Origin: Minisyncoccia bacterium
GTDB lineage: Bacteria > Patescibacteriota > Minisyncoccia > Phycocordibacterales > Zambryskibacteraceae
Assembly: GCA_049651785.1 (NCBI GenBank)
Contig: JBASCT010000021.1
Span: 1 to 50,850 of the forward strand
Direction: 5' to 3'
Length of the DNA stretch: 50,850 nt
This document shows, in pieces, positions 18,385-45,798 of this stretch. Below the pieces are notes generated by a model. That model saw only the letters and a program-made list of their open reading frames with translations, had not been told where the DNA came from and ran no database searches. Every line of letters starts with the position of its first letter. The stretch's first letter is position 1. The position numbers were made by a program, and so were the translations under genes.

Positions 18385-18403
18385 TTGTGATATATTGACT
18401 TCC

Positions 18404-32342: not shown

Positions 32343-32361
32343 CCAGTTGTCAGCGCCGAAC

Positions 32362-32405
32362 ACGGGTCAGTCGGATTTTAGTCCGACTGACCCGTCATCT
32401 TTTTT
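32362..32405. terminator. Bidirectional terminator, 14-bp stem
   Basis: acgggtcagtcgga-ttttag-tccgactgacccgt followed by catctttttt. Lies between convergent genes. Confidence 0.85.
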
Positions 32406-32989: not shown

Positions 32990-32990
32990 A

Positions 32991-33019
32991 TTGACAATCT
33001 CTAAATTAAGTATTATATT
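32991..33019 (+). promoter_or_regulatory. Sigma-70 promoter TTGACA-17-TATATT
   Basis: TTGACA 32991-32996, TATATT 33014-33019. AAGGAGG at 33054-33060 precedes ATG 33065. Confidence 0.65.
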
Positions 33020-33064
33020 CATAAATAGACTAGCACTTAGACAATCTTAAAGCAAGGAGGTTAC

Positions 33065-33595: not shown

Positions 33596-33623
33596 CGTTT
33601 TCAAACAGCGCTAGTCCGTTTTT
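33587..33623 (+). terminator. Rho-independent terminator
   Basis: acggactagcg-(11-nt loop)-cgctagtccgt followed by tttt. The stem includes the GNAT stop codon. Confidence 0.75.
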
Positions 33624-33647
33624 AACATCATAAAAGAATTTCTCTTG

Positions 33648-33667
33648 CGTGGTATTATTAAAAAATG
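33648..33667 (+). promoter_or_regulatory. Promoter/leaderless-start module copy B
   Basis: CGTGGTATTATTAAAAAATG, identical to copies at 31991 and 35912. Confidence 0.65.
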
Positions 33668-33748
33668 AGTTTTCCTGTGTTTACCATAACACTTGGTATC
33701 TTTGCTGGGTTTGTGCAACCAATTACAACACTAGTAGTAACAATTTAG
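33665..33748 (+). pseudogene. Truncated 5' fragment of the same membrane-protein gene family (27 codons)
   Basis: MSFPVFTITLGIFAGFVQPITTLVVTI then TAG. The first 29 nt from the module start are identical to copy A; the sequences diverge after that. Confidence 0.45.
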
Positions 33749-33829
33749 CAGATTAGTGCATTATCTTGATTTCCTTGATCCGTTCCTGTAGTTTGGTGCC
33801 CAGATGTTCATTTAAATCCGGAGAAATCA

Positions 33830-34828
33830 ATGGAAATTCGCTTTGTTGTTGCAACACATTGCAACGCTGACTGCTACTTCTGTCTCAATGAGTATGTTGG
33901 AACAAAGTCCCCAAATTTCGCACTCTACCCAACTCATTATGAAAGAATAATGAGATCGGCGGCTGATCTAGCCGTAACAGATTGCACAATTACAGGAGGA
34001 GAACCAACCTTAAGAAAAGATCTCGGTGGAGTTATGTCTGCGATACGAGGTAATGCTTCTCGTATAACACTCATTACCAACGGGTATCGTCTTCCGCAAC
34101 ACAAACTTGCGCTTGAGCAGATCGATGAGCTCCATGTTAGTTTCCATTCAATGAATGAAGGTGAGTGGAAACGAATAACTAATGTCGGAGGTGGTCCCGA
34201 ACGCGTGATTCGTGGTTTGCGTTTTGCACGATCAGTAAACGAGGAGATGAGGATTAAGCTCAACGTTGTGAGTGAGGAACAAAACTCTACCAATGAGGAG
34301 ATTGAAAAATATCTCACTCTCGCAAAGGAGATCTCAGCTGACATCAACGTTTTTAAGGAAGGATATTTTTCTTTCCTTAGTGAAATGGGTGTGGAGGTTA
34401 AGAAATCTCCTGTTCCAGTAGAACTTTGGGAATTGGAATCATTTTCCCCCATTCTTCTTGGAAGTACCCACAGAAAGAAGACTTTCTCTGTAAATGGTGT
34501 GAAAGTTTCACTTTCTCACACGAGTACCGACTTTCCTAGTTGGGATTCATGCTGGATTACTCCTATGGGACAAGCGTTTGTTGATTCTAGGCAACGCCTA
34601 CCGCTCATAGATCTCTTACCCGCCATCGAATCCGAAAACTACAAAAAAATTAGGGGTTCTCTGGATTCTCTTTTTAGAGAAGCAGAGATATGGCGCGGGT
34701 GCGGAGACGTTGGAAAGGGTAATCTACCAAAGGAGATTGAAACTCTGGGGAAAGAGCGCTCAGAAATTTTCGACACATCGAAATCTGTCAATGTTGCGAG
34801 GTTAGTGAAATGGCAAAAGCAAAGATAG
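33830..34828 (+). CDS. Radical SAM enzyme, MoaA/viperin-like
   Basis: CNADCYFC (CxxxCxxC) at residues 11-18, ITGGEPTLRKDL, LITNGYRL. The C-terminal Cys triad of MoaA is not present. GGAG 6 nt upstream of the ATG. Confidence 0.8.
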   Translation: MEIRFVVATHCNADCYFCLNEYVGTKSPNFALYPTHYERIMRSAADLAVTDCTITGGEPTLRKDLGGVMSAIRGNASRITLITNGYRLPQHKLALEQIDELHVSFHSMNEGEWKRITNVGGGPERVIRGLRFARSVNEEMRIKLNVVSEEQNSTNEEIEKYLTLAKEISADINVFKEGYFSFLSEMGVEVKKSPVPVELWELESFSPILLGSTHRKKTFSVNGVKVSLSHTSTDFPSWDSCWITPMGQAFVDSRQRLPLIDLLPAIESENYKKIRGSLDSLFREAEIWRGCGDVGKGNLPKEIETLGKERSEIFDTSKSVNVARLVKWQKQR

Positions 34829-35361
34829 TTTCTTTTGACGGACATGATTGTGTCGGCAAGACATCTCTGATGAGCGCGACTGTTCACGCGCTTTCAGAGA
34901 AAGGTCTTTCGGTTACAATGTTCAGGTCAGTAAATAAGGACTTTGAGACAGAGCGTCTGCGTCACTCAGAAGTATCTCAGAACATTTGGTTCTATGTGAG
35001 CGCATGGTTGAACACTGAAAAGGAAATCCTTAAATCAGTAGATTCAACAAACTTCATCTTCATCGACAGGTCTTATTACTCGACCATGGTTCTTGCTGGG
35101 GCCCTTGACCTCTATTTTCCTCATTTTCTCCTTCAAACATTCTTGAAGCCAGACTATGCGTTTTGGGTTCAGGTTAGTGAAGAGGAGAGAATGAGACGAC
35201 TCGAAAGAAAAAGAGCCACACGAGAGGACTACATAACCGTAAACGCCACACTCATAAGTAAGGCCGATCTGATTTACACATCCTTGGGGCTACTTCCGCT
35301 TAATAACGAGGGCCCACTTCAGGATGGAGCGCAAAGGCTTTCGGCGATTCTCCTTCGCTAA
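34810..35361 (+). CDS. Thymidylate-kinase-like P-loop nucleotide kinase
   Basis: FDGHDCVGKTS P-loop, FIFIDRSYYST (DR motif), PDYAFWVQVSEEERMRRLERKR lid-like region. 19-nt overlap with the radical SAM gene. Confidence 0.7.
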   Translation: MAKAKIVSFDGHDCVGKTSLMSATVHALSEKGLSVTMFRSVNKDFETERLRHSEVSQNIWFYVSAWLNTEKEILKSVDSTNFIFIDRSYYSTMVLAGALDLYFPHFLLQTFLKPDYAFWVQVSEEERMRRLERKRATREDYITVNATLISKADLIYTSLGLLPLNNEGPLQDGAQRLSAILLR

Positions 35362-35365
35362 TTAT

Positions 35366-35401
35366 AACTGCGTACTGTAAAATTATGGTACGCAGTTTTT
35401 T
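35366..35401 (+). terminator. Rho-independent terminator
   Basis: aactgcgtac-(12-nt loop)-gtacgcagtt running into tttttt. Confidence 0.7.
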
Positions 35402-35893
35402 ATGAAATTGTTATCAAAAAAAGTAGTCAATCTTAATAATTCTAATTTGAACGTCTCTATTTTTAAGATAGAGAGCGATAGTGACCTTTTTGGTGCAAGT
35501 CGAGTGTATGTACTAGGGGTAAATAAGGGCGGTTCAGTCTGCATAATTTTCAATGCAAAGAGAAAAATATGGGGTTTCCCAGGAGGTCATATAGACGAAG
35601 GCGAATCAGTGACAGAGGCAATAAAACGAGAAAGCATGGAAGAATGCGGATATTCTCTTGAGATTGTTGAGCCAAAATTTGTTATTGAAAATGTTGTTGA
35701 TGATAAGGTTGAGAAACAGGTAATATGTTTTGGCAGATTTGAACATAATATCAATAAGCTTAACGCAGCAGAAGGGGAGACTGTTACAGATGTAAGGTTT
35801 GTGAATCTGTCCGAATTAAACACACTTATTTCTTTGCCTCAAGTTTGGTCAGAAATAATTGAGGAATTTGAATTGTGGTTGAAAAACACCTAA
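35402..35893 (+). CDS. Nudix hydrolase
   Basis: Complete Nudix box GGHIDEGESVTEAIKRESMEECGY. Confidence 0.85.
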   Translation: MKLLSKKVVNLNNSNLNVSIFKIESDSDLFGASRVYVLGVNKGGSVCIIFNAKRKIWGFPGGHIDEGESVTEAIKRESMEECGYSLEIVEPKFVIENVVDDKVEKQVICFGRFEHNINKLNAAEGETVTDVRFVNLSELNTLISLPQVWSEIIEEFELWLKNT

Positions 35894-35911
35894 AAATAAC
35901 AAATCTCCTAG

Positions 35912-35931
35912 CGTGGTATTATTAAAAAATG
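35912..35931 (+). promoter_or_regulatory. Promoter/leaderless-start module copy C
   Basis: CGTGGTATTATTAAAAAATG. Here the ATG opens the 161-aa membrane protein gene. Confidence 0.65.
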
Positions 35932-36414
35932 AAAGAGGGGCACAAGAAAGTGGGGATTATTGCCGTAAGCTTCACTGTTGTTGAAGCGTTGAACTTTGCT
36001 TTTGATTTCATCACTTATCCACTGGCGATAGGATATCTTGGCGCCACCAAAGGTGGTGCTATTATGACAGTGCTCGCTCTCGGTTTAAATTATGGGTTGG
36101 TTGTTTTTTATAATAAAACAAACAGGGATTGGTTCGGTTTTGAGTGGTTAAGGCTTCAGAAACAAGAGGAGGCTAAGAGCGGACCAGGAAGAATTCTTCG
36201 CCACATACTACATTTTGGTCACTGGCCAGCTTATGTTTTTCTTTCGTGGCAAGATCCTTTCAAAGCTTTCGTTTTTGTCCGTGGTCGCAAGGCAGTAGGG
36301 GAGAAATTTAACAAAGCTGATTGGGCATGGTTTTTTGGGACAAATCTTCTCGGTAATTTAATCTGGATTGTAATAGTCTCTGGTGCGATTGAACTTATTA
36401 AACGCCTAATCTAA
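35929..36414 (+). CDS. Hypothetical membrane protein, 161 aa
   Basis: Track ORF with at least three hydrophobic helices. No family recognised. Confidence 0.6.
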   Translation: MKEGHKKVGIIAVSFTVVEALNFAFDFITYPLAIGYLGATKGGAIMTVLALGLNYGLVVFYNKTNRDWFGFEWLRLQKQEEAKSGPGRILRHILHFGHWPAYVFLSWQDPFKAFVFVRGRKAVGEKFNKADWAWFFGTNLLGNLIWIVIVSGAIELIKRLI

Positions 36415-36457
36415 ACAACACTGTCTATACGTTTTCAAATAGGTGTATAATTTGTGT

Positions 36458-36844
36458 ATGTCTATATCCTTAGATGAAAACACAAAAAGGTTGTTTGCTT
36501 TAGTGTTGATTCTTGTATTTGGAGTAATAACTTTCTCTACCTATAAATATTATGCACAAGAGAACTATACTCTCTATATTAAGACAAGTTGTGATCCAAC
36601 ATTAAATAATTGTTTTGTACAAAATTGTGATAGCGAAGAAGATATACGTTGTCCTTACACAGGAGATTACTATTACAAGATAATATTAAAAAATGCTTCT
36701 CAAATACCCTCATGTTTATCTGATGATTCCAACGCCTGTGGCGAGTTGACTTGTAACGACGATAATTGTGAAATTATCTATTGTTCTGAAGAAAACATTG
36801 AATTATTCGGACCCGAAGACACCTGTTCTTCCATAAGTGACTAA
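36458..36844 (+). CDS. Membrane-anchored Cys-rich protein (hypothetical)
   Basis: TATAAT 36446-36451 lies 6 nt upstream of ATG 36458; the track GTG start 36443 would sit inside the promoter. One TM helix, then a domain with at least 10 Cys. Confidence 0.55.
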   Translation: MSISLDENTKRLFALVLILVFGVITFSTYKYYAQENYTLYIKTSCDPTLNNCFVQNCDSEEDIRCPYTGDYYYKIILKNASQIPSCLSDDSNACGELTCNDDNCEIIYCSEENIELFGPEDTCSSISD

Positions 36845-36851
36845 CAGAAAA

Positions 36852-37646
36852 ATGGTAGAAGCGACACATACCACGATTGTTAACGAGATATACTCGACTC
36901 TTTCAGAAATAGAGCACGAATTAGTAAAACGCAGAAAGAATAAAAAACTCAAAAAATTGGTAGAAGATTTTCTTGGCACTTATTTACTAGAAGAACTTAG
37001 ACTGAAACCAAGAGCAGTTTTGTCACGAACAATAATTAATCCCAACACCGAATTTAGATATTTCTTAGATTTAGCCAAAGAACTTAAACTTGATCCATTA
37101 GGATTTGAGTATCACGATAAGTTTGTGACAAAGAATCCTGACAAATATCATCTTGCAAAAATGTATTTTGCAAAAAAAGAAAACGATGGCACTCAAACTT
37201 TATCAAGTACCAAAATAGTTGATTTTAATAAATACGAAGGTAAAAATTTTGAAGAAATAAAAACCCAAAATAATGAATCTCTAATTGACTTCCATCACAA
37301 AATCCTTCTTTCTAAATATCCAGAAATGCTTAATAATATTGTAGATATTACCCAATGGTTTCAGACCACAAGAAAGTTGTCCAAGTTTTATTACTTGTAT
37401 TTTTTATCCTTGTTTATTTGTCACGGGGTGTTATTTGATAACTTTCTTTTGAAAGAAAAAGGTGAGGCAGATTTTTTTGAAGAAAAAGTTTATCCGAGTT
37501 TTCAGGAAATAAGTAAAATGTTTGGCGTTAAACCACTTATTTACCCGCTTTTACCAATAGAGTACGAAAAAGATAGCCAATGGATGGCTTACGAGGATGA
37601 TATGAAACAGGAGATTGATGACAATTTTAATGATAAACTAAAATAG
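36852..37646 (+). CDS. Hypothetical protein, ~264 aa
   Basis: Track ORF 36837..37646 (GTG). ATG 36852 is more likely. Ends 2 nt before the kinase gene. No family recognised. Confidence 0.55.
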   Translation: MVEATHTTIVNEIYSTLSEIEHELVKRRKNKKLKKLVEDFLGTYLLEELRLKPRAVLSRTIINPNTEFRYFLDLAKELKLDPLGFEYHDKFVTKNPDKYHLAKMYFAKKENDGTQTLSSTKIVDFNKYEGKNFEEIKTQNNESLIDFHHKILLSKYPEMLNNIVDITQWFQTTRKLSKFYYLYFLSLFICHGVLFDNFLLKEKGEADFFEEKVYPSFQEISKMFGVKPLIYPLLPIEYEKDSQWMAYEDDMKQEIDDNFNDKLK

Positions 37647-37648
37647 TA

Positions 37649-39274
37649 ATGGGTTACAACTTAGAACAAAATATTGAATATTGTAGAGTAATTGTGGAAG
37701 AGTTTTCTGGTCTTTTATATTACTCACACATCCCTTCTGCAGCCGTAGCACTTTTAATTGGATTTTTTGTGTTCTGGAAAAATAAAGACTCTCTTCTTGC
37801 CATTCTTTTATTGATCATTAGTGTTTTATTTACTTTCTGGAGCGCTCTAGATTTGGCTATCTGGATGAACTATGCCAAGGGTGACATTGTGATGGCGGCG
37901 TGGGCACCAATAGAGCTTATTGCTGTACTAATATTTGTTTTCTGTTTGTACTTTGTGTATGTCTTTACTGATGGTAAAGATGTAAGTCTGTCTAAAAAAC
38001 TTATTTGGACTGCCCTTGTGTTACCAATGATATTAGTTTTGCCAACAGTATTTAATCTAGAGGGCTACGATATTCAGGAGTGTATAGCAACAGAGAGTAC
38101 GTATTACCAGCTGTACTATCGTGCACTTAAAATTATATTTTCTGTATGGATAGTATTTACTCTGATTCGCAAATACATTGAAACCAAAGGTGAGTTTAAA
38201 AAACAAATAATGTTTCTAGGGCTAGGAATGACTATTTTTATTCTAAGTTTCTTTGTAGCGGGTTATGTATCAGATACAACTTTTGACTATAGTTACGAAA
38301 TGTATGGTTTGTTTGCCATGGCAATCTTCATGGCATTCCTAGCGTATCTAATTGTTAAATTTAAAACATTCCATCTTAAACTCTTTGGCGCCCAAGTTCT
38401 TATAATTTCTCTAATTATTCTCATCGGTTCTCAATTTGCTTTTATTCAGACTACTACTAATAAAATCCTTACCTCTGTAACATTAATAATTACCGGTCTC
38501 ATCGGCATTAATTTGATCAGAAGCGTTAGAAAGGAAATTGAAGCTAAGAAGCACATTGAAAAACTTGCAGGTGAGTTGCAGACAGCCAACGAAGGTCAGC
38601 AAAATCTTATCCATATTATTAACCACCAGATTAAGGGCTACTTGGCGAAGGCGAGAAATATATTCTCCGAACTTTTGAATGAGCCGAGTTATGGCCCCGT
38701 CTCGGACGCTTCTAAGCCGATGCTTGAAGAAGGATTCAAGTCGCTCACGGAGGGTGTTGACCTCGTCAAAGACTTTTTGGATGCCTCCAATATCGAGCGG
38801 GGCTCGTATGCCTTCAGTCTCGCACCCCTTGATTTCAGGGCACTCGTCGAAGAGATGGCGGAGAAAGAGAAGAGTCTCGCGGAAGATAGAAAGCTTTCTT
38901 ACGAAGTGAAAATTGAGAATGGTGACTACAACACAAAAGGGGATAAGCTCCAGCTCGGACAAGCGGTCAAGAACCTGATAGACAACTCTATCCGCTACAC
39001 TCTCGAGGGTGGTCTCTCTGTAAATCTCTCAAGGAAGGATGGCAAGATTCTCTTCTCGGTCAAAGACACTGGCGTTGGTCTCTCGGAAGAGTTGAAGCCG
39101 AAACTCTTTACCCAAGGCGGTCGTGACAAGAACTCTATCAAGATAAACATCAACTCCACTGGCTTCGGTCTCTCCTTCGTTAAAAGTGTTGTTGAAGCAC
39201 ATAAGGGTCGTGTCTGGGCCGAGTCCGACGGTCCCAACAAAGGCTCCACTTTTTACATGGAATTGCCAGTGTAA
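37649..39274 (+). CDS. Sensor histidine kinase with large multi-TM N-terminal domain
   Basis: About 8 hydrophobic helices. H-box region IHIINHQIKGYL. N box NLIDNSIRYT, G1 DTGVGL, G2 GFGLSF. No response regulator nearby. Confidence 0.85.
   Translation: MGYNLEQNIEYCRVIVEEFSGLLYYSHIPSAAVALLIGFFVFWKNKDSLLAILLLIISVLFTFWSALDLAIWMNYAKGDIVMAAWAPIELIAVLIFVFCLYFVYVFTDGKDVSLSKKLIWTALVLPMILVLPTVFNLEGYDIQECIATESTYYQLYYRALKIIFSVWIVFTLIRKYIETKGEFKKQIMFLGLGMTIFILSFFVAGYVSDTTFDYSYEMYGLFAMAIFMAFLAYLIVKFKTFHLKLFGAQVLIISLIILIGSQFAFIQTTTNKILTSVTLIITGLIGINLIRSVRKEIEAKKHIEKLAGELQTANEGQQNLIHIINHQIKGYLAKARNIFSELLNEPSYGPVSDASKPMLEEGFKSLTEGVDLVKDFLDASNIERGSYAFSLAPLDFRALVEEMAEKEKSLAEDRKLSYEVKIENGDYNTKGDKLQLGQAVKNLIDNSIRYTLEGGLSVNLSRKDGKILFSVKDTGVGLSEELKPKLFTQGGRDKNSIKININSTGFGLSFVKSVVEAHKGRVWAESDGPNKGSTFYMELPV
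38978..39271 (+). repeat. Direct repeat copy 1 (3' end of the histidine kinase gene)
   Basis: 294 nt aligns without indels to 44290-44583 with about 18 mismatches counted by eye. Codon-level similarity extends ~12 nt further upstream. Confidence 0.9.
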
Positions 39275-39289
39275 TGAATATTTAACTTT

Positions 39290-40504
39290 ATGCTCAAACG
39301 CATTACTGGATATGATTATTCTCCTGATTTAGAAGAAGTAGAGGTTATCGAGAGAAAGGGGATTGGCCATCCAGATAGCGTTGCAGACATAATTGCCGAA
39401 TCATTTTCAAATGATTATTCAAAATATTATCAAAAAAAATACGGCAAAATTTTAAATCACTGGTTTGATAAAGTTTTAATTTCTGGAGGGGAAGCTATCC
39501 TTAGACCTGGATTTGGTAGTATTATCAAAAAACCAAAGGTATATCTTTTTGGCAAAATAACCAGAGTAAGCAATGACGATTTAAATATTGAAGAATTTTT
39601 TAAAATTACAGTTTTTAGGGTAATGCGCGATATATTCGGTATTGAAGATGAAATAATGCCAGATATTGTTGTAGATACCAACTCTGGAGTCGGAGCAGAA
39701 CACCCTATAAGTTTTTATAATACCAATGTTTATGATATTACTAAAGAGAGTGATGACTTAGTTTCAAACGACACAATTTTCTGCAATGGATACTATCCAT
39801 ATACTAAATTAGAACATTACGTTTGTGACCTTGAAAATTATATTAACTCCAAATCATTTAAAGAAAATCATTATTATACTGGTTTTGATGTTAAGGTTCT
39901 TGCTAAACGAATTAAAAATAATATAGATATCACGGTATGCATTCCTTTTATTGCGGCCAGAACAGAATCTTGGGCATTATATTTTGAATTAAAGAAAAAC
40001 ATTGAAAATGATCTTTACTTTTTTACTAAAAAATTTAAGTGGGACAGCGTCAATATACACCTAAACACAAAGGATCGAGAAGGCAAGGGCTTTTTAACTT
40101 TATATGGAAGCGCCTTCGACAAGGGTGATTTTGGTGTGGTAGGTAGGGGAAATAGATATTTGGGCTTCATCACCTCTTGTCGTGGGGAAACCCAAGAAGC
40201 TTATAGTGGAAAAAACCCAGTTATTCACTCGGGAAAATTATTCTCGATAATAGCTCATCGTATTGCAAGAAAGATAAGTATTCTAGATGGTGGTCCTGTT
40301 AAGGTTATTATATGTATCAATAACGGGTCTCCTATTAAAGAACCAGAATCTGTATTTGTATTTACTAAAGATAAGAAAATATCTGATCAGCATATAAGAG
40401 GATTATTGCTCAACGAATTTAATAATATTCACAATATTACTACTCACATTATTAATTTAAATCCAGTAGAAGAGTTTGTTACAAAAAGCATTCTACTATC
40501 ATAA
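39290..40504 (+). CDS. Archaeal-type S-adenosylmethionine synthetase (MAT, PF01941-like) homolog
   Basis: ERKGIGHPDSVADIIAE, SNDTIFCNGYYP, GDFGVVGRGNR and SGKNPVIHSGK align by eye to the conserved blocks of archaeal MAT. Confidence 0.7.
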   Translation: MLKRITGYDYSPDLEEVEVIERKGIGHPDSVADIIAESFSNDYSKYYQKKYGKILNHWFDKVLISGGEAILRPGFGSIIKKPKVYLFGKITRVSNDDLNIEEFFKITVFRVMRDIFGIEDEIMPDIVVDTNSGVGAEHPISFYNTNVYDITKESDDLVSNDTIFCNGYYPYTKLEHYVCDLENYINSKSFKENHYYTGFDVKVLAKRIKNNIDITVCIPFIAARTESWALYFELKKNIENDLYFFTKKFKWDSVNIHLNTKDREGKGFLTLYGSAFDKGDFGVVGRGNRYLGFITSCRGETQEAYSGKNPVIHSGKLFSIIAHRIARKISILDGGPVKVIICINNGSPIKEPESVFVFTKDKKISDQHIRGLLLNEFNNIHNITTHIINLNPVEEFVTKSILLS

Positions 40505-40510
40505 AATATT

Positions 40511-41374
40511 ATGCATATATTGGTTTCTTTATTTCACACTACTATCGATTTGCCCAGCTTATATGTTTTTGACTCTGATTTGAATCCAGTACTTAAATTT
40601 GCAAATGAATACAGAAACATCAAAGGATTGTTTTTAAGTAAAAGTTTTATATATGCCGGCTATAAGGATGAAAATAATGATTGTTGGCTGTTAATATTTT
40701 CCAAGCAATTTTTTAAACTTGTAAATAAATGTTTACTAATAAACACCATTGACATACACTCCATCTACATAACGAATAATCTGTTGTATGTAGTATCAAG
40801 TGGGACAAACAGTATTTATGTGTATAAAATTGATAACTTGGAGAATCTGAATAAAGCCAATCCCATCAGTAACATAAAAACATTAATTACTGATATAGAC
40901 AATGAAGACATTCTTCATTTAAACAGTATTTATATAAAAGAAAACAACGACTTATTTATTACGGGTTTTGGAGGCAAGAAGCAGGGGGAATGGAATAAAG
41001 AATGCAATGGCTTCATATTGAACATTAAGCAGAATATAGTACTATTGGATGGAATATTTCACCCGCACTCATTATTTTTTAGAGACTCTGATATGTGGTT
41101 TTGTGAATCTGGTAAAAAAAGAGTATATAAAAATAAAGAAATCGTGGTGGATAAAGCAGATGGGTATACTAGGGGTCTCGCTCTTTCTGAGAACGGCAAG
41201 TTTCTATTACTAGGAACTTCTACTTCACGTATTTATGGTCAAGAAGAGGTTGACCTAAAAACAAGTGGGGTTCATAAATTTGAAATAAATGAAAAATCAT
41301 TTTTAGTGCCTGTAAAGTCATTTTATTTTAAAGATACACAGGCGGAGATTTATGACTTAATAGAGTTAAGATGA
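40511..41374 (+). CDS. DUF4915/TIGR03032-like beta-propeller protein
   Basis: LHLNSIY, HPHSLFFRDSDMWFCESGKKRV, GYTRGLAL and EIYDLIEL resemble the conserved blocks I recall for that family. Assigned from memory only. Confidence 0.5.
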   Translation: MHILVSLFHTTIDLPSLYVFDSDLNPVLKFANEYRNIKGLFLSKSFIYAGYKDENNDCWLLIFSKQFFKLVNKCLLINTIDIHSIYITNNLLYVVSSGTNSIYVYKIDNLENLNKANPISNIKTLITDIDNEDILHLNSIYIKENNDLFITGFGGKKQGEWNKECNGFILNIKQNIVLLDGIFHPHSLFFRDSDMWFCESGKKRVYKNKEIVVDKADGYTRGLALSENGKFLLLGTSTSRIYGQEEVDLKTSGVHKFEINEKSFLVPVKSFYFKDTQAEIYDLIELR

Positions 41375-42255
41375 AAAAAACGATAACTTATATTGGAATA
41401 TCGCCGTTTAATAGTAGTCCTAGAATGGGAGGCCTGAGGACAATGCTATACACATATGTTTTTACTCGTCATAATAATGGACTTATATATTTAAAATCAG
41501 ATGATACTAATCCAGGCAGTAGAATTAAGGACAACTATTATTCCCAAGTTAAGTTTTTAAATGCGTGCGGCTTAAACTTTGAAAGCAATGAGCTAAAGAA
41601 TCCTAGTGGATCATCAATTTTTCAATCTGAAAATAGCACAGTTTATACTGAATATTTAAATAAATTAGTTGATTGTGGGCTGACATCTGAAAAAGATAGC
41701 TTAGTCTCTTTAGATATTAGAGCAATAATTGATTATTTAAAATTGAAAAACATAACCATACACGATTTATTAAGGGGTGACATAAATTTTAAAGCAGATA
41801 GATTGGGTTATGAATATATACCACTATATTCTCGCAGTAAAAAAAGGTTTTTCTTCCATCTCCCAACTATTATTGATGAGTCAATCTACGGAACCACCCT
41901 GCTTATAAGAGGCGAAGATAAAATTTCTACAGCCCCGATTCATGAAATTTTAAAAAAATTCTTTTTGTTAGAGAAGCAAGATTATCTACACCTACCTTTA
42001 TTGTTAGACAAATCAACAAATAAAAGAATAAAAAGTGATAATTATTTAGTAAGCGAGATGGTCAAAAAGTACCCAACCCCTGTAGTGGTAGCATACTTAC
42101 TTTTATCTGGTTATAGGAGTAGAAGGTTTAAATATGTTTCATTAAGTGAATTTACTGAAGATTTCAATTATCACAAATTGAAAAAGCAGTCCGGAAAGTT
42201 TTATGAGGAAGATCTTATTAAAATATCCGAAAAATACCGTAAGCTAATTAAATAG
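41371..42255 (+). CDS. GluRS/GluQRS-like class I catalytic-domain paralog with degenerate HIGH and KMSKS
   Basis: ISPFNSSPRMGGLRTMLYTYVF (HIGH position reads PRMG), FQSE, LLIRGEDKISTAPIHE, YLHLPLLLD..NKRIKS. 294 aa with no anticodon-binding domain. ATGA overlap with the upstream gene. Confidence 0.6.
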   Translation: MKKTITYIGISPFNSSPRMGGLRTMLYTYVFTRHNNGLIYLKSDDTNPGSRIKDNYYSQVKFLNACGLNFESNELKNPSGSSIFQSENSTVYTEYLNKLVDCGLTSEKDSLVSLDIRAIIDYLKLKNITIHDLLRGDINFKADRLGYEYIPLYSRSKKRFFFHLPTIIDESIYGTTLLIRGEDKISTAPIHEILKKFFLLEKQDYLHLPLLLDKSTNKRIKSDNYLVSEMVKKYPTPVVVAYLLLSGYRSRRFKYVSLSEFTEDFNYHKLKKQSGKFYEEDLIKISEKYRKLIK

Positions 42256-42267
42256 TTAACAATTATA

Positions 42268-42276
42268 TGTTATACT
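42268..42276 (+). promoter_or_regulatory. Extended -10 box TGtTATACT, 12 nt upstream of metG ATG
   Basis: Same 9-mer as upstream of leuS (9258-9266). Confidence 0.5.
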
Positions 42277-42288
42277 CAAAGATTAATT

Positions 42289-43743
42289 ATGCAGAAGCAA
42301 AAGTATTTTTACATAACGACGACATTGCCGTATGTAAACGCACAACCGCACATAGGTCACGCCTTGGAATTTGTACGTGCAGATTCGATAGCAAGATATA
42401 AAAAAATTAATGGCTATAATGTCTTTTTCAACACAGGCACTGATGAGCACGGGCAAAAACTGCTAGAAGCAGCAAATAAAAAAAATATTAACATTAAAAA
42501 TTATGTTGATACCAACTCGCAAGTATTCAAAAAATTACTCGTGATTTTGGGTATAAGTGAAAACATTAATTTTATTCGTACTACTGATCCTAATCATATA
42601 AAAGCGGCACAAGAATTTTGGAAAAGGGTCGAGAAAAACGGATTTATATATAAAGCCAAATATCAGGTAAGGTATTGTGTGGGGTGTGAACTTGAAAAAT
42701 TCGACTCAGACTTGGTGGATGGGAGGTGTCAGTATCATCCGACACTAGATATTCAGATAATAAATGAGGATAACTATTTCTTTAGACTTTCTGATTTTCA
42801 AGATAGATTAATCAGTCTTTTTGAGAAAAACATAAATTTTATTTTACCAGAGTCTAGATACAATGAAGCAAAAAATTTTATTTCACATGGGCTTAAAGAT
42901 TTTTCAATATCTAGATTGAAATCAAAGATGTCTTGGGGCATTCCGGTTCCCGGCGATGACGAGCACGTAATGTATGTATGGTTTGATGCCCTAACGAGCT
43001 ACATAAACGCCTTAGGATGGCCTGAAAACGTAGAAATTTTTAAGAAATATTGGGTTAATGGAACTCCTGTTCAGTATTGTGGACAAGACAACCTAAGACA
43101 ACAGTCAATTATATGGCAAGCAATGTTGATGGCTGCTAATTTACCAAACTCTAATAAAATAATTGTAAATGGTTTTGTGCTTGGTGAAGGCGGGGTAAAG
43201 ATGTCTAAAACTGCGGGTAATGTTATAGACCCCATTAAGTTGGTTGAAAATTATGGTAAAGACGCAGTACGTTTATACTTGCTGAAAAATATCCACCCAT
43301 GGAATGGCTCACCTATTTCATACAAATCATTCCATCTTACATATGAAGCTGAGCTTGTTAATGGTCTTGGTAACTTAACCTCACGGCTGTTGAATATGTC
43401 AGAAAAATATTTAAACGAACCAGTTAGTTTCCCAGATAAATTTGAATCTAAAGAATGGTTCGACCACTTTGAAGACTATAGAATGGATTTAGTTACTGAG
43501 TTTATATGGGGGAAAATCTACAAATTAGATAAATCGATCTCTGAAACTGAACCCTTTAAATTGGTCAGTACAGATCTGCCAAAAGCGCAAATGTTGTTAA
43601 AAGAATACGCAAGAGATTTATACACTATCGCCCAAATGCTAGAGCCGTTATTACCAGAAACAAGCCGTCAAGTTAAAGGTTTAATAAAACAGAACAAAAA
43701 ACCTAGGGCACCTCTTTTTCCAAGAAAAAGGATGTTAAAATAA
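42289..43743 (+). CDS. metG: Methionyl-tRNA synthetase (core form, 484 aa)
   Basis: PYVNAQPHIGHALE (HIGH), single knuckle CVGCE...CQYH, VWFDAL, KMSKTAGNVIDP. Confidence 0.9.
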   Translation: MQKQKYFYITTTLPYVNAQPHIGHALEFVRADSIARYKKINGYNVFFNTGTDEHGQKLLEAANKKNINIKNYVDTNSQVFKKLLVILGISENINFIRTTDPNHIKAAQEFWKRVEKNGFIYKAKYQVRYCVGCELEKFDSDLVDGRCQYHPTLDIQIINEDNYFFRLSDFQDRLISLFEKNINFILPESRYNEAKNFISHGLKDFSISRLKSKMSWGIPVPGDDEHVMYVWFDALTSYINALGWPENVEIFKKYWVNGTPVQYCGQDNLRQQSIIWQAMLMAANLPNSNKIIVNGFVLGEGGVKMSKTAGNVIDPIKLVENYGKDAVRLYLLKNIHPWNGSPISYKSFHLTYEAELVNGLGNLTSRLLNMSEKYLNEPVSFPDKFESKEWFDHFEDYRMDLVTEFIWGKIYKLDKSISETEPFKLVSTDLPKAQMLLKEYARDLYTIAQMLEPLLPETSRQVKGLIKQNKKPRAPLFPRKRMLK

Positions 43744-43747
43744 TACT

Positions 43748-43822
43748 GGGAGGGTAGCTCAGCCTGGTAGAGCACTGGTATCATTTACCAGAGGTCATGG
43801 TGTTCAAATCCCATCCCTCCTA
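43748..43822 (+). tRNA. tRNA-like gene, anticodon CAT (Met/Ile2 type), atypical structure
   Basis: Hand fold. Acceptor GGGAGGG/CCCTCCT (G1-U72). D arm GCTC-AGCCTGGTA-GAGC. Anticodon stem CTGGT/ACCAG with loop ATCATTT. T arm ATGG(T)G-TTCAAAT-CCCAT needs a bulged U. No CCA encoded. Confidence 0.6.
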
Positions 43823-43860
43823 CTAACTTTAATATTAAAAATATTGTAAGAGTTGTTGCA

Positions 43861-44589
43861 ATGATTGAATTTGAAGCAAAATTTTTAGATATAGAAAAGG
43901 GAAAGATTAGGGCACTCCTAAAACATAAGGGCGCGCGCCTTGTTAGACCTGAATATAGCCAAAAACGATTCAACTTTCACCTGCCTAAAGATAAGAGATC
44001 TAATGATGCTTGGTTAAGAGTTCGTAATGAGGGTGATAGGATCACACTAGCCCTCAAAATGATTACGGGATCTAGCATAGAAGATCAGAAAGAAATCCAA
44101 CTAGTAATTGATAGTTTTGATAACGCAATTACTCTCCTTGAGTCAATAGGATGTGAGAAAAAAGCTTTTCAAGAGTCAAGGAGAGAGCTTTGGAAGTTAG
44201 GTCAAACAGAAATTACAATAGATGAATGGCCTGGATTGGAGCCGTTTGTTGAGATTGAGGGATCCTCTGAAGATGAGGTAAAAAACCCTATAGACAACTC
44301 TATCCGCCACACTCTCGAGGGTGGTCTCTCTGTAAATCTCTCAAGGAAGGACGGCAAAATTCTTTTCTTTGTCAAAGACACCGGTGTCGGTCTCTCGGAG
44401 GAGCTGAAGCCGAAGCTCTTCACCCAAGGTGGTCGTGACAAGAACTCTATCAAGATAAACATCAACTCCACTGGCTTCGGTCTCTCCTTCGTTAAATGTG
44501 TTGTTGAAGCACATAAGGGTCGTGTCTGGGCCGAGTCCGACGGCCCCAACAAGGGCTCCACTTTTTACATGGAATTGCCCGTGATTTAA
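43861..44589 (+). CDS. Chimeric ORF: C-terminally truncated CYTH (CyaB/triphosphatase-like) domain fused to a histidine-kinase HATPase_c fragment
   Basis: N-terminal IEFEAKF (ExExK) CYTH signature for about 140 aa. From ~44278 the sequence duplicates the last ~100 codons of the kinase at 37649..39274. Confidence 0.65.
   Translation: MIEFEAKFLDIEKGKIRALLKHKGARLVRPEYSQKRFNFHLPKDKRSNDAWLRVRNEGDRITLALKMITGSSIEDQKEIQLVIDSFDNAITLLESIGCEKKAFQESRRELWKLGQTEITIDEWPGLEPFVEIEGSSEDEVKNPIDNSIRHTLEGGLSVNLSRKDGKILFFVKDTGVGLSEELKPKLFTQGGRDKNSIKININSTGFGLSFVKCVVEAHKGRVWAESDGPNKGSTFYMELPVI
44290..44583 (+). repeat. Direct repeat copy 2
   Basis: See 38978-39271. The central ~110 nt are identical. Most differences are third-codon positions. 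Confidence 0.9.
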
Positions 44590-44590
44590 G

Positions 44591-45301
44591 ATGGTAACAA
44601 GTAACCAAAAAGAAGTACTTTTCAGGGAAATTTTCTCGTATATAAAAAAATACCAAGTTAAGTCACTCCTCGATATCGGAGCGGGGGATGGTCCTTTGGC
44701 CAAAAGATTGGCGGGCAAGGTTTCCGAATATCTTGCTGTTGAGCGCGACAGTAGGCGAGCTAAAAATTTAAGATCACTAGGACTAAACGTAATTCACGGC
44801 ACTTTTCCTGTAAAAACAGGGAAGAAGTTTGATATGGTGCTTGTCTCTCATTCCATACCAGAAAACGCTACATTCTATAAACCATTTTTAAAAAGAGCGT
44901 GGAATTTGGTTAACGGCGATGGGATTTTGCTGATAATAACTTTTAAAGGCCAACTCGGCGAGCTATATAAACTTAGAAGAGAATGGCGAGCTACTGATAG
45001 TCAAGGAAATCGAGACATGGAACCCTACAAACTCATGCTAAAGATTCTCAGAAGTTTTGGCGGTGTCAAAATTCATAGGGCCGTCAGCGAATTCAAATCC
45101 ACCAATCTTGCTGAAATCGTCAAGTTAACCATGTTATCGGTAGGTCCCGCGAAAGCAAAAAGACAAGCGTGCAAACAATTTCTCGGAAAATTTTTAAAGG
45201 ACAGCCGTCGCTCCAGGAAACCATACACCCTCAGTCACCAACACATCTTTTTATCCGTCCGCAATAAAAAAGGGCCAGCAACCTATGTTGCTGGCCCTTA
45301 A
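44591..45301 (+). CDS. Class I SAM-dependent methyltransferase
   Basis: Motif I LLDIGAGDGPLA. Starts 2 nt after the stop of the chimeric ORF. The 3' end runs through the terminator hairpin. Confidence 0.7.
   Translation: MVTSNQKEVLFREIFSYIKKYQVKSLLDIGAGDGPLAKRLAGKVSEYLAVERDSRRAKNLRSLGLNVIHGTFPVKTGKKFDMVLVSHSIPENATFYKPFLKRAWNLVNGDGILLIITFKGQLGELYKLRREWRATDSQGNRDMEPYKLMLKILRSFGGVKIHRAVSEFKSTNLAEIVKLTMLSVGPAKAKRQACKQFLGKFLKDSRRSRKPYTLSHQHIFLSVRNKKGPATYVAGP
45272..45297. terminator. Bidirectional hairpin terminator
   Basis: gggccagcaac-ctat-gttgctggccc, preceded by aaaaaa. Lies between convergent genes. Confidence 0.75.
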
Positions 45302-45315
45302 GTCAAGCGGGCACC

Positions 45316-45678
45316 CTACGTTTCGTAGTGACCCTGGTGTTGTGTACCGTCCGGCGTTCTGAGGCAGTGGCAGGCCATGCGAACATCTCCATCGCGGCCC
45401 AGGCGCCAGCTCGTCTCGAGGATGTTCTGGCCACGGACGACGTCGGCAGAAACGGATCTGATGATCTGCTCACGCGTCTTGCGGTTGGTGGTCTCGAACA
45501 GGACTTCTCCTTCATTGATTGGGAAGTGAGTGTGCAGGATGTTGATCCCGAAACGGTCAAGGGCGTTGTGCTTCTCGAGCACCTCCGCGAGTTCGCGGAA
45601 GAGCCCATCGTCCGCCGCAGTTTTCGGTCTGACCGAGTCGACATCTGGCAGTCTCGAATATGCAAGTGCCACGTTCAT
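45316..45678 (-). CDS. Hypothetical protein, 120 aa, GC-rich
   Basis: GGAGG 7 nt upstream of ATG 45678 (track ORF extends to 45723). MNVALAYSRLPD...ILHTHFPINEGEVLFET. Family not recognised. Confidence 0.55.
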   Translation of the reverse strand: MNVALAYSRLPDVDSVRPKTAADDGLFRELAEVLEKHNALDRFGINILHTHFPINEGEVLFETTNRKTREQIIRSVSADVVRGQNILETSWRLGRDGDVRMACHCLRTPDGTQHQGHYET

Positions 45679-45798
45679 CGTGTCGCCTCCGTAATGGGTT
45701 GGTAAAAAACAAATATTGCTCAACAGTTGTACGTATTTTCTGCCGCTACATTAAGTGTTTTTATCTTTTTTGTCAATCATACCATCCGTAATTCTCCC

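What the first reader, a model, noticed from the sequence alone, without database searches (positions are those of the whole stretch)
39290..43822. Very AT-rich cassette centred on methionine/SAM and aminoacylation
Seen in sequence:
- Five tightly packed + strand genes run in order: archaeal-type MAT homolog, DUF4915-like propeller, HIGH-less GluRS-like paralog, MetRS and an atypical tRNA(CAU).
- Spacers are 6 nt, a 4-nt overlap, 33 nt and 4 nt.
- The block is the most AT-rich in the window (17/60 G+C in the sampled line 40501-40560).
- It sits between two copies of a 294-bp repeat and is followed by a CYTH-domain remnant.
- Every recognisable enzyme uses ATP plus an amino acid (Met or Glu-like). 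MAT releases triphosphate, the substrate class of CYTH enzymes.
- A SAM-dependent methyltransferase and a radical SAM enzyme lie in the same accessory region.

Inference, with three alternatives:
- a horizontally acquired Met/SAM supply module
- a tRNA-dependent or aminoacyl-adenylate-dependent small-molecule pathway, with MetRS as a resistant copy
- a dedicated MetRS/tRNA pair

I cannot tell from this window whether this MetRS is the only one in the genome.
Basis: partly seen in the sequence, partly recalled or inferred. Interest (0 to 1): 0.8.

Follow-up and report, generated by a model that had tools for sequence, protein, structure and literature searches.

The report
Mobile SAM-synthetase, synthetase and tRNA cassette
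A rare gene cassette that moves between tiny "candidate phyla" bacteria packages a SAM-making enzyme, a crippled glutamyl-tRNA-synthetase look-alike, a normal methionyl-tRNA synthetase and an oddly built methionine tRNA, which points to an undescribed tRNA- or SAM-linked activity and not to ordinary housekeeping.

Summary
In detail: genes, spacers, AT-richness, flanking repeat, CYTH remnant and atypical tRNA are all as described. The block is not a chance neighbourhood. The GluRS-like protein belongs to a tiny family (12 clusters among 5.8 billion proteins; 1 of 185,579 reference species). In all 12 distinct loci found it follows an archaeal-type MAT. In 11 it is followed by a MetRS, with a tRNA(CAU) beside MetRS in all 10 whose contig reaches that far. 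In one locus the pair is ValRS plus a cassette-type tRNA(UAC). The cassette is AT-richer than its hosts. In five loci it is bracketed by imperfect duplications of host sequence, twice the 3' end of the same histidine-kinase gene, so it was acquired horizontally by homology-anchored recombination. The MAT keeps 51/53 family-invariant residues and the MetRS is an ordinary Paceibacteria type. The GluRS-like protein lacks the anticodon domain, HIGH, a normal KMSKS loop and the glutamate-binding residues. The tRNA is under structural selection but has a pyrimidine at position 37 in 8 of 10 copies. More distant Patescibacteria link MAT, an NDK-like protein and a HIGH-less GluRS-like protein without MetRS. 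The function is unknown. My best guess is a private aaRS/tRNA pair feeding a non-adenylating GluRS-derived enzyme that also depends on SAM.

The parts
37649..39274 (+). 7TM sensor histidine kinase gene. Its 3' end is the homology anchor next to which the cassette sits.
   Evidence: PF16927 + PF02518. The same HK-then-cassette arrangement occurs in L018, whose HK is 64% identical.
38965..39264 (+). Left copy of the 300-nt direct repeat (last ~100 codons of the HK gene).
   Evidence: The two copies differ by 16 synonymous and 4 non-synonymous changes in 102 codons. The repeat ends at the HK stop codon.
39290..40504 (+). Archaeal-type methionine adenosyltransferase (SAM synthetase), cassette-specific clade.
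   Evidence: PF01941 273 bits. 35-40% identical to solved archaeal MATs. Keeps 51/53 family-invariant residues. Forms a clade of ~12 clusters at 54-59% identity, then a gap to 42-46%.
40511..41374 (+). DUF4915/TIGR03032-like protein; optional cassette component of unknown function.
   Evidence: PF16261 63 bits. Homologs sit between MAT and the GluRS(-like) gene in L009, L012 and L023-25 only. The AF2 single-sequence model failed, pLDDT 38.
41371..42255 (+). Truncated, HIGH-less GluRS-derived protein; defining member of a new small family.
   Evidence: 12 clusters only. AF2 pLDDT 92.6. Foldseek TM 0.83 to bacterial GluRS catalytic cores, 0.71 to GluQRS. Residue map against 1J09: R5->Y/F, Y187->F, N191->C/T, W209->K, H15 variable, KMSKS loop shortened. 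55 invariant positions across the family.
42289..43743 (+). Core methionyl-tRNA synthetase (484 aa, no C-terminal appended domain), ordinary Paceibacteria type.
   Evidence: TIGR00398 354 bits, above its 336 cutoff. PHIGH and KMSKT are readable in the translation. Thousands of Patescibacteria MetRSs are 55-66% identical. NJ tree.
43748..43823 (+). Non-canonical tRNA(CAU): U37, pairable 32:38, G1-U72, A73, no encoded CCA, bulged T stem.
   Evidence: On the cloverleaf 99.2% of cells pair and 13/22 pairs carry compensatory changes across 11 homologs, 0/500 shuffles. All 7 ordinary tRNAs on related contigs have a purine at position 37.
43861..44589 (+). Chimeric ORF: truncated CYTH domain (residues 1-141) fused in frame to the duplicated HK C-terminus. 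It marks the right-hand recombination junction.
   Evidence: PF01928 aligned to profile positions 1-154 of 179, plus PF02518. Junction at about 44277.
44277..44576 (+). Right copy of the 300-nt repeat (HK 3' end).

Best explanation
SHOWN: This is one copy of a rare, horizontally moving 4-5 kb operon of Patescibacteria (CPR bacteria). Its invariant core is a catalytically intact archaeal-type SAM synthetase plus a truncated GluRS-derived protein. A complete class Ia synthetase (MetRS; once ValRS) has been joined to that core, with a tRNA whose anticodon matches it in every locus whose contig extends past the synthetase. In this window the cassette entered next to a histidine-kinase gene by recombination anchored on HK homology, which duplicated the last 300 nt of that gene. 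INFERRED, most likely mechanism: the cassette's own synthetase charges the cassette's own tRNA. That tRNA keeps everything needed for folding and aminoacylation (cloverleaf, CAU or UAC anticodon, A73). It has drifted at a position needed for good decoding (pyrimidine 37), so it may be poorly used by the ribosome. The GluRS-like protein keeps the Rossmann core, the acceptor-binding insertion and the stem-contact fold. It has lost HIGH, a normal KMSKS loop, the anticodon-binding domain and the glutamate-binding residues. It therefore probably does not make an aminoacyl-adenylate. Instead it would bind the 3' end of that aminoacyl-tRNA in a now hydrophobic pocket, and/or an adenosine-containing ligand without a triphosphate, such as the SAM made by the adjacent MAT. 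It would then catalyse a tRNA-dependent transfer or modification. The product is unknown.
For: Linkage: the GluRS-like gene follows a PF01941 MAT in 12/12 distinct loci. A class Ia aaRS follows in 12/12 (11 MetRS, 1 ValRS). A matching tRNA adjoins the aaRS in 11 loci, which is every locus whose contig extends far enough. Rarity: 12 clusters among 5.8 billion proteins, 1 of 185,579 species, 0 viral contigs. Co-inheritance: pairwise identities of GluRS-like and MetRS correlate at r=0.86. MAT clades were exchanged (L016, L018) while adjacency was kept. Anticodon and synthetase switch together in L003, on a tRNA body that shares the cassette acceptor stem, T arm and U72-A73-C74. The literature shows the anticodon alone distinguishes tRNAMet from tRNAVal for MetRS, and that both share A73 (PMC9976931). 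tRNA: strong compensatory covariation. Position 37 is U or C in 8/10 CAU copies, against a purine in 7/7 ordinary tRNAs nearby; base 37 is normally a purine (PMC5699536). GluRS-like: confident GluRS-core fold, both class I signatures degenerate, Glu-binding residues replaced by F/Y/C/T, yet 55 invariant positions. MAT keeps 48-53 of 53 invariant residues. Mobility: cassette GC is below its flanks in 5 loci. Bracketing imperfect repeats of 300, >=100, 48, 40 and ~65 nt occur in 5 loci. The window's repeat copies differ 16:4 synonymous to non-synonymous. L018 uses the same HK target with a different junction. Ordinary Paceibacteria MetRS genes have no MAT or tRNA beside them. Precedents from established knowledge: cyclodipeptide synthases are class I aaRS folds that lost their ATP motifs and use aminoacyl-tRNAs. 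S. aureus keeps non-proteogenic tRNAGly isoacceptors for cell-wall synthesis (PMC7826273).
Against: No biochemical evidence exists. An Arg often replaces the HIGH histidine, and a K/R-rich remnant of KMSKS remains, so some ATP use cannot be excluded. Two cassette tRNAs (L016, L019) have a normal A37, and the D and T loops are canonical, so the tRNA could still be an ordinary elongator. The Val switch is a single locus, and its ValRS lies on the opposite strand, so it could be a coincidental neighbour. The MAT/GluRS-like pair also occurs without any aaRS or tRNA (L026-L028; and with a canonical truncated GluRS in L023). So the ancestral role of the pair need not involve a private tRNA. No acceptor substrate or downstream tailoring enzyme is conserved. 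I could not determine whether host genomes hold second copies of metG, metK or tRNA-Met.
Confidence: 0.4

Rival explanations
1. Methionine-use 'supply' operon with a regulatory aaRS paralog. MAT, MetRS and tRNA-Met are ordinary working copies: either a backup set or the only set, relocated. The GluRS-like protein is a non-catalytic subunit that binds an adenosyl-amino-acid ligand (SAM resembles an aminoacyl-adenylate) and regulates or scaffolds MAT. This would parallel HisZ, a HisRS paralog that regulates HisG.
For: The MAT/GluRS-like link is deeper than the MetRS link. It holds in L026, L027 and L028 without any aaRS or tRNA and survives exchange of MAT clades. Gene overlaps of 4-11 nt between MAT (or DUF4915) and the GluRS-like gene suggest translational coupling. 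MAT is intact. MetRS is an ordinary type. The window lacks a MetRS at the DnaK-DnaJ position where relatives have one. Loss of the phosphate-binding motifs while the adenosine/amino-acid pocket is kept fits a ligand without a triphosphate.
Against: It does not explain why a tRNA with conserved odd features travels with the module. It does not explain why the synthetase and anticodon switch together to Val in L003. It does not explain why a regulator keeps the acceptor-binding and stem-contact domains. Extreme rarity, low GC and flanking duplications mark the cassette as accessory, so hosts presumably already have these functions.
Confidence: 0.28
2. GluQRS-like tRNA-modifying enzyme. The truncated GluRS-like protein modifies the cassette tRNA itself (anticodon loop or 3' end). 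It would use an amino acid or a SAM-derived group, as GluQRS glutamylates queuosine-34 of tRNAAsp.
For: It has the same architecture as GluQRS: a GluRS catalytic core without the anticodon-binding domain. The co-encoded tRNA has an unusual, co-varying anticodon loop (32:38 always pairable; U/C37). MAT could supply SAM.
Against: It scores far below the GluQRS models (54.8 against a cutoff of 276.7) and is closer to GluRS than to GluQRS. It lacks the HIGH-type motif and the Glu-binding residues that GluQRS keeps. There is no hydroxyl-bearing hypermodified base to acylate at C34. The L026-28 relatives have no tRNA nearby.
Confidence: 0.12
3. Self-resistance module of an antibiotic or RiPP pathway. 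The MetRS would be an inhibitor-insensitive copy protecting a producer of a MetRS-targeting or methionine-analogue compound.
For: aaRS genes in accessory regions are often resistance copies (general knowledge). L006 has a C39 peptidase and a radical SAM enzyme downstream. The window has an ABC exporter, small paralogous peptides and a radical SAM gene upstream.
Against: The MetRS is not a divergent type: it nests among ordinary Paceibacteria MetRSs. No biosynthetic genes are conserved with the cassette across loci; the radical SAM, C39 and methyltransferase genes are locus-specific. The flanking repeats delimit a unit holding only MAT, the GluRS-like gene, the aaRS, the tRNA and one small accessory gene.
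Confidence: 0.05
4. Chance neighbourhood of vertically inherited housekeeping genes, with an assembly artefact producing the repeat.
For: CPR genomes are compact and operons mix functions. The window is a metagenomic contig.
Against: The linkage recurs in 12 loci at 31-62% protein identity. Independent assemblies reproduce the cassette. Bracketing repeats recur in 5 loci. The GC contrast is clear.
Confidence: 0.02

Closest known systems
GluQRS (YadB), glutamyl-queuosine tRNAAsp synthetase
   Same: A GluRS catalytic core that has lost the anticodon-binding domain, about 290 aa, presumably acting on a tRNA.
   Different: GluQRS keeps a working ATP motif and the glutamate-binding residues. This family has lost both. 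It scores far below the GluQRS models, is closer to GluRS in sequence and structure, and is always linked to a MAT.
Cyclodipeptide synthases (class Ic aaRS-like enzymes that use aminoacyl-tRNAs)
   Same: A class I aaRS Rossmann fold that has lost the ATP-binding signatures while keeping an aminoacyl pocket. This is the precedent for an aaRS-derived enzyme that consumes aa-tRNA (established knowledge).
   Different: CDPSs derive from TyrRS/TrpRS, are not sequence-related to this family, and are not co-encoded with their own aaRS and tRNA. The similarity is functional analogy only and was not tested here.
HisZ (HisRS paralog, regulatory subunit of ATP-phosphoribosyltransferase)
   Same: An aaRS paralog without aminoacylation activity, genetically coupled to a metabolic enzyme that uses the same small molecule.
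   Different: HisZ is class II and is not accompanied by a synthetase or tRNA. No complex between the GluRS-like protein and MAT has been shown.
Non-proteogenic tRNAGly isoacceptors of Staphylococcus for Fem transferases (PMC7826273)
   Same: tRNAs that are charged by a normal synthetase but carry sequence features that divert them from translation to another aminoacyl-tRNA-dependent process.
   Different: Those tRNAs differ mainly in the D and T regions and in EF-Tu affinity. Here the deviations are at position 37, at 32:38 and at the 1:72 pair. The consuming enzyme would be aaRS-derived, not a GNAT-fold Fem transferase.
Archaeal-type methionine adenosyltransferase (PF01941; e.g. Sulfolobus MAT, PDB 4HPV)
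   Same: Full-length match, 35-40% identity, with 51/53 family-invariant residues kept.
   Different: It scores below the NCBIfam equivalog cutoffs (268 against 481 bits). It forms small cassette-specific clades in bacteria.

Membership tests
Glutamyl-tRNA synthetase (class Ib aaRS) | Rossmann-fold catalytic core of GluRS type | tested here: met
   PF00749 70 bits. Profile hit to GluRS 8jpv at 6.6e-30. Foldseek TM 0.83.
Glutamyl-tRNA synthetase (class Ib aaRS) | HIGH signature (first His contacts ATP) | tested here: not met
   The position equivalent to H15 of 1J09 is R/S/G in 11 of 13 family members; the window has R.
Glutamyl-tRNA synthetase (class Ib aaRS) | KMSKS loop (K-[IL]-S-K-R) | tested here: not met
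   The loop is two residues shorter and reads (K)-R-x-[KR]-[GS]. Residual phosphate binding cannot be excluded.
Glutamyl-tRNA synthetase (class Ib aaRS) | Glutamate-binding residues R5, Y187, N191, R205, W209 (T. thermophilus numbering) | tested here: not met
   R5->Y/F, Y187->F, N191->C/T, W209->K. Only R205 is mostly kept (reference sequence verified against 1J09).
Glutamyl-tRNA synthetase (class Ib aaRS) | C-terminal anticodon-binding domains | tested here: not met
   The protein ends at a position equivalent to about residue 315 of GluRS. The gltX model is matched only up to position 316 of 470.
GluQRS (YadB) | Score above the curated family cutoff | tested here: not met
   TIGR03838 54.8 bits against a cutoff of 276.7. 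PDB 1nzj only 2.6e-8.
GluQRS (YadB) | Acts on queuosine-34 of tRNAAsp | not testable with these tools
   The co-encoded tRNA has a CAU anticodon, not GUC.
Archaeal-type MAT (PF01941) | Full-length match above the Pfam gathering score, with catalytic/invariant residues kept | tested here: met
   273 bits against a cutoff of 27. 51/53 positions that are >=93% conserved in 104 diverse homologs are kept.
Archaeal-type MAT (PF01941) | NCBIfam equivalog cutoff (orthology to characterised archaeal MAT) | tested here: not met
   Best hit NF003362, 267.7 bits against a cutoff of 481. This is a divergent clade.
Methionyl-tRNA synthetase | metG model above cutoff, with HIGH and KMSKS present | tested here: met
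   TIGR00398 353.9 bits against 336.35. P-H-I-G-H and K-M-S-K-T are readable in the translation.
Elongator tRNA-Met | Cloverleaf, CAU anticodon, A73 | tested here: met
Elongator tRNA-Met | Purine (A, normally t6A) at position 37 | tested here: not met
   U37 in the window and in 6 other loci, C37 in L005, A37 only in L016 and L019. Ordinary tRNAs nearby are all purine-37.
Bacterial initiator tRNA-fMet | C1xA72 mismatch, three G:C pairs at 29-31:39-41, A11:U24 | tested here: not met
   1:72 is G-U, A-U or CxU. The anticodon stem lacks the three G:C pairs. 11:24 is C:G.
tRNA-Ile2 (CAU, lysidine) | A37 (t6A37 is an IleRS determinant in bacteria); partner TilS/IleRS | tested here: inconclusive
   A pyrimidine at 37 argues against it (PMC9976931). 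The anticodon co-varies with the neighbouring synthetase: MetRS with CAU, ValRS with UAC. TilS could not be searched for.
Integrative mobile element (integrase- or transposase-borne) | Element-encoded recombinase | tested here: not met
   No recombinase domain in any ORF between the repeats. No phage or defence family hits.
Integrative mobile element (integrase- or transposase-borne) | Flanking direct repeats | tested here: met
   Five loci have them. However, they are long, imperfect copies of host coding sequence differing mainly at synonymous sites. That fits homology-anchored recombination better than att sites or target-site duplications.
DUF4915 / TIGR03032 | Model scores above cutoffs | tested here: inconclusive
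   PF16261 63.1 bits against 35 (met). TIGR03032 57.8 bits against 251.5 (not met).
Nucleoside diphosphate kinase (for the ~162-aa accessory ORF of related loci; absent from the window) | NDK fold with K-P and N-x-x-H catalytic motifs | tested here: inconclusive
   Pfam NDK E=0.004, below cutoff. The top two PDB profile hits are NDKs, E=0.019 and 0.11. hhalign E=5e-4, probability 32%, with the motifs aligned.

The most novel reading that the evidence does not exclude
The HIGH-less GluRS-derived protein is a new kind of tRNA-dependent enzyme. It would use SAM, a structural mimic of an aminoacyl-adenylate made on site by the linked MAT, together with a privately charged, non-translational tRNA (Met or Val). 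It would build or transfer a product by chemistry not yet described for any aaRS paralog. The whole system would be packaged as a self-sufficient cassette (enzyme, SAM source, synthetase, tRNA) that spreads among CPR bacteria by recombination.
Probability: 0.15. Interest if true: 0.9.

Novelty: new variant of a known kind. Interest (0 to 1): 0.68.

Why it matters
aaRS paralogs that have left translation (GluQRS, HisZ, EpmA, cyclodipeptide synthases, MshC) have each revealed unexpected biochemistry. This is an undescribed family of that kind with unusually explicit genomic clues: it is always beside a SAM synthetase, and usually beside a full synthetase and a matching tRNA with a non-canonical anticodon loop. 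It gives a directly testable case of a possible private aaRS/tRNA pair in nature, carried on a 4-5 kb mobile unit, in organisms (CPR/Patescibacteria) whose metabolism is poorly understood. It also documents homology-anchored acquisition of translation genes in CPR bacteria. If the tRNA proves to be an ordinary elongator, it would still be a rare natural tRNA that tolerates a pyrimidine at position 37.

Tried and rejected
- **Viral origin:** no relative of the GluRS-like family in 2.9 M viral contigs.
- **Defence system:** no PADLOC hit for any cassette protein.
- **Resistant or divergent MetRS:** rejected, because it nests among ordinary Paceibacteria MetRSs.
- **Transposon target-site duplication or att site:** rejected. 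The repeats are 40-300 nt, imperfect and made of host coding sequence, with a 16:4 synonymous to non-synonymous ratio. No recombinase is present, and the junction points differ in the window and L018.
- **Initiator tRNA and tRNA-Ile2 identities:** considered and judged unlikely.
- **Encoded CCA as a discriminator:** dropped, because ordinary tRNAs on related contigs also vary.
- **Promoter/terminator scan:** no better than shuffled sequence.
- **DUF4915 structure:** The sequence search of the PDB found nothing.
- **NDK assignment of the 162-aa ORF:** remains weak.
- **Literature:** nothing found for DUF4915, PF01941 in bacteria, or CPR GluRS paralogs.
- **Conserved link to the window's radical SAM, methyltransferase or CYTH genes:** none found in other loci.

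Full report
**1. Observation**

- Four tightly packed + strand ORFs (39290-40504, 40511-41374, 41371-42255, 42289-43743) are followed 4 nt later by a tRNA(CAU) at 43748-43823.
- They are, in order: an archaeal-type MAT (PF01941, 273 bits), a DUF4915 protein (63 bits), a PF00749 GluRS-like protein (70 bits) and a MetRS (TIGR00398, 354 bits, above its cutoff).
- GC falls to 0.31-0.33 here against 0.50-0.55 in the first 32 kb. The sampled line 40501-40560 has 17/60 G+C.
- The flanking repeat is 300 nt at 93% identity.
- The downstream ORF 43861-44589 is a truncated CYTH domain fused in frame to a histidine-kinase C-terminus.
- Two independent Logan assemblies reproduce the cassette, and one reproduces its left junction.

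**2. It is a conserved module, not a chance neighbourhood**

The GluRS-like protein has only 11 other relatives among 5.8 billion protein clusters, at 41-48% identity. It has one hit among 185,579 reference species, a Candidatus Collierbacteria, and none in viral contigs.

Context look-ups and a metagenome scan gave 12 distinct loci.
- In all 12, a PF01941 MAT lies directly upstream of the GluRS-like gene. A DUF4915 gene sits between them in the window, L009 and L012.
- In 11, a ~480-aa MetRS lies directly downstream.
- In the 10 of those whose contig extends far enough, a tRNA(CAU) abuts MetRS. It is inverted in L016 and L018.

Ordinary Paceibacteria MetRS genes (L020-L022) have neither a MAT nor a tRNA beside them.

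**3. The synthetase/tRNA pair can be swapped**

In L003 the GluRS-like gene is followed by a tRNA that shares the cassette tRNA's acceptor stem, T arm and U72-A73-C74 end but has the anticodon UAC. The neighbouring class Ia synthetase is ValRS (870 bits against a cutoff of 704), not MetRS.

Published identity work shows that the anticodon alone lets MetRS distinguish tRNAMet from tRNAVal, and that both systems share A73 (PMC9976931). So a single anticodon change plus a synthetase exchange would re-assign this tRNA body. This is one locus with a convergently oriented ValRS, so it is suggestive and not conclusive. L003's MAT is also the only one that has lost H313 and K316 of the GKNP-H-GK motif.

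**4. The deepest link is MAT with the GluRS-like protein**

- The window-type MAT forms a clade of ~12 clusters at 54-59% identity, then a gap to 42-46%.
- All three sampled next-tier MATs (L026, L027, L028) have a HIGH-less PF00749 protein (451, 452 and 327 aa) within two genes, with no aaRS or tRNA nearby.
- Between them lies a 161-170-aa ORF homologous (E 1e-31 to 1e-42) to the 162-aa ORF that follows the tRNA in L005, L011 and L019.
- That ORF gives three weak but concordant NDK signals, with the K-P and N-x-x-H motifs aligned.
- L023-25 carry MAT (59%), DUF4915, thymidylate kinase and a truncated but canonical GluRS catalytic domain, inside a cell-wall gene cluster.
- Across ten cassette loci, GluRS-like and MetRS identities correlate at r=0.86. 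MAT correlates less (r=0.54 and 0.36), because L016 and L018 combine a type-II MAT with a GluRS-like/MetRS pair that groups with type-I loci. MAT was therefore exchanged while adjacency was kept, which argues for selection on the combination.
- A library-wide profile search shows the cassette family is a sub-branch of a modest HIGH-less GluRS paralog group with its own signature: [IV]-S-P...[KR]-I-G-x-[IL]-R-[ST], RG-x-DK and K-x-L-K-G.

**5. What the parts look like**

*MAT.* It keeps 48-53 of the 53 positions that are >=93% conserved in 104 diverse PF01941 proteins. It aligns full-length to solved archaeal MATs. It is very probably an active SAM synthetase.

*MetRS.* It has HIGH and KMSKS. 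It is as similar to thousands of ordinary Patescibacteria MetRSs (55-66%) as the cassette copies are to each other. In an NJ tree the cassette copies fall in two adjacent clades nested among ordinary ones, and the window's copy sits beside a non-cassette clade. Nothing marks it as a resistant variant.

*GluRS-like protein.* It gives a confident model (pLDDT 92.6) that superposes on bacterial GluRS catalytic cores (TM 0.83), better than on GluQRS (0.71). I mapped it on T. thermophilus GluRS, whose sequence I verified against 1J09. The map shows:
- no anticodon-binding domain;
- the HIGH histidine is R/S/G/H;
- the KMSKS loop is shortened;
- the glutamate-binding residues are replaced: R5->Y/F, Y187->F, N191->C/T, W209->K;
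- S9, P10, G17, D42, T43, H188 and D194 stay invariant, and R205 is kept in 11 of 13 members; 55 positions are invariant in the family.

This is a selected protein with a remodelled, more hydrophobic pocket. It is unlikely to form glutamyl-adenylate.

*tRNA.* It is under clear structural selection. 99.2% of cells pair, 13 of 22 pairs carry compensatory changes, 0/500 shuffles reach this, and slid controls give 44-57%. Yet position 37 is U or C in 8 of 10 CAU copies, while all 7 ordinary tRNAs on related contigs have a purine. Base 37 is normally a purine (PMC5699536). Positions 32:38 are always pairable (A-U, U-G, U-A). U72 and A73 are invariant, with a weak or mismatched 1:72 pair. It lacks initiator features. 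Pyrimidine 37 also argues against tRNA-Ile2, because t6A37 is a bacterial IleRS determinant.

**6. How it got here**

- The cassette is AT-richer than its flanks in the window (0.32 against 0.50), L005, L011, L016 and L018.
- In five loci it is bracketed by imperfect direct repeats of host sequence, spaced 3.8-5.3 kb apart: 300 nt (window), >=100 nt (L018), 48 nt (L011), 40 nt (L005) and ~65 nt (L006).
- In the window the repeat ends exactly at the HK stop codon. Its two copies differ by 16 synonymous and 4 non-synonymous changes in 102 codons. They were therefore two functional HK alleles that diverged in different genomes.
- L018 has the same HK target with a different junction point, so it was an independent event.
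- No recombinase lies between the repeats.

The simplest reading is homology-anchored recombination: either Campbell-type integration or homology-facilitated illegitimate recombination. Donor DNA already had the cassette beside its HK gene. The right junction then created the CYTH'-HK' chimera.

The L005 and L011 repeats delimit a ~4.3-kb unit of MAT, GluRS-like, MetRS, tRNA and the NDK-like ORF.

**7. Interpretation**

*Shown:* this is a rare, conserved, horizontally spreading operon. Its core is an intact MAT plus a non-canonical GluRS-derived protein, usually extended by a full synthetase and a matching, structurally selected but anticodon-loop-deviant tRNA.

*Inferred (confidence about 0.4):* the synthetase and tRNA form a private pair whose aminoacyl-tRNA is used by the GluRS-like protein, and/or that protein uses SAM from the MAT, in a tRNA-dependent reaction. 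Cyclodipeptide synthases and the non-proteogenic tRNAGly of staphylococci are the functional precedents.

*Main rival (about 0.28):* a methionine-use operon in which the GluRS-like protein is a HisZ-like ligand-binding partner of MAT and the tRNA is an ordinary elongator. This explains the MAT link best, but it does not explain the tRNA's peculiarities or the Val swap.

A GluQRS-like tRNA-modifying role (about 0.12) and antibiotic self-resistance (about 0.05) are less likely. Chance adjacency is refuted.

**8. Limits**

- Most loci are short metagenomic contigs. Taxonomy is known only for L011 and from names attached to MetRS homologs.
- The trees are NJ on identities.
- The Val variant is a single case.
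- The NDK assignment is weak, and DUF4915 has no structural model.
- I could not test whether any host genome has second copies of metG, metK or tRNA-Met.
- I found no literature describing this family or cassette.

Noticed in passing
window 31978-32039 and 33635-33696; small ORFs 32008-32124 and 33665-33748: A 62-nt segment is repeated at 82% identity. Each copy carries the start of a small hydrophobic ORF (MSFPVFSITLG... / MSFPVFTITLG...). They lie between an ABC exporter (30085-31926) and a radical SAM gene (33830-34828). This may be a small-peptide (RiPP or bacteriocin-like) locus.
   Followed up: partly
window 32000-45300: The whole stretch from about 32 kb to 45 kb has lower GC (0.32-0.44) than 1-32 kb (0.50-0.55). 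The cassette may therefore be nested in a larger accessory island that includes the HK gene itself.
   Followed up: no
window 34810-35361 and 35402-35893: Two small ORFs upstream match candidate defence families in PADLOC: PDC-M51B/VakA at E 1e-14, and PDC-S07 at E 6e-10. The second also shows NUDIX-like similarity to the NUDIX gene of cassette locus L006 (tblastn 35522-35701).
   Followed up: no
L023 3564-7171 (also L024, L025): MAT (59% identical to the window's), DUF4915, thymidylate kinase and a 288-aa truncated but fully canonical GluRS catalytic domain (HIGH, KLSKR and R5 all present; 390 bits to gltX). The block is inserted between MurG and an M23 peptidase in a cell-wall/division cluster. 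It may be an evolutionary intermediate or a split GluRS.
   Followed up: partly
L003 376-2433: In the ValRS/tRNA(UAC) variant, a sulfotransferase-like gene directly precedes the MAT. That MAT alone has lost otherwise invariant residues (G24, H313, K316, Y318), hinting at a changed substrate.
   Followed up: no
L006 2039-2147 and 7138-7247; 2337-2426 / 2618-2707: The left flanking repeat of this cassette copy abuts a sequence that looks like the 3' half of a tRNA (T arm, acceptor 3' strand, CCA) which ARAGORN does not call. The NUDIX gene inside the cassette has a partial 90-nt tandem duplicate.
   Followed up: no
L016 4217-4291 and L018 4270-4344: In two loci the cassette tRNA is on the opposite strand to MetRS but still directly abuts it, 3 nt from the stop codon in L016.
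   Followed up: partly
window 9273-11420 and 18395-20029: The host LeuRS (715 aa) and AlaRS (544 aa, ending just after the second additional domain) are markedly short, which I take to be typical of CPR-style reduced synthetases.
   Followed up: no
P0193-P0250: PF01941 archaeal-type MAT homologs (33-37% identical) occur in many actinomycetes (Micromonospora, Actinoplanes, Kitasatospora, Nocardiopsis). I presume these also have a bacterial MetK. If so, the homologs may be pathway-specific second SAM synthetases.
   Followed up: no
window 45303-45723: A short, locally GC-rich stretch just after the methyltransferase gene carries long overlapping ORFs on both strands (120-135 aa). No family search was made.
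   Followed up: no
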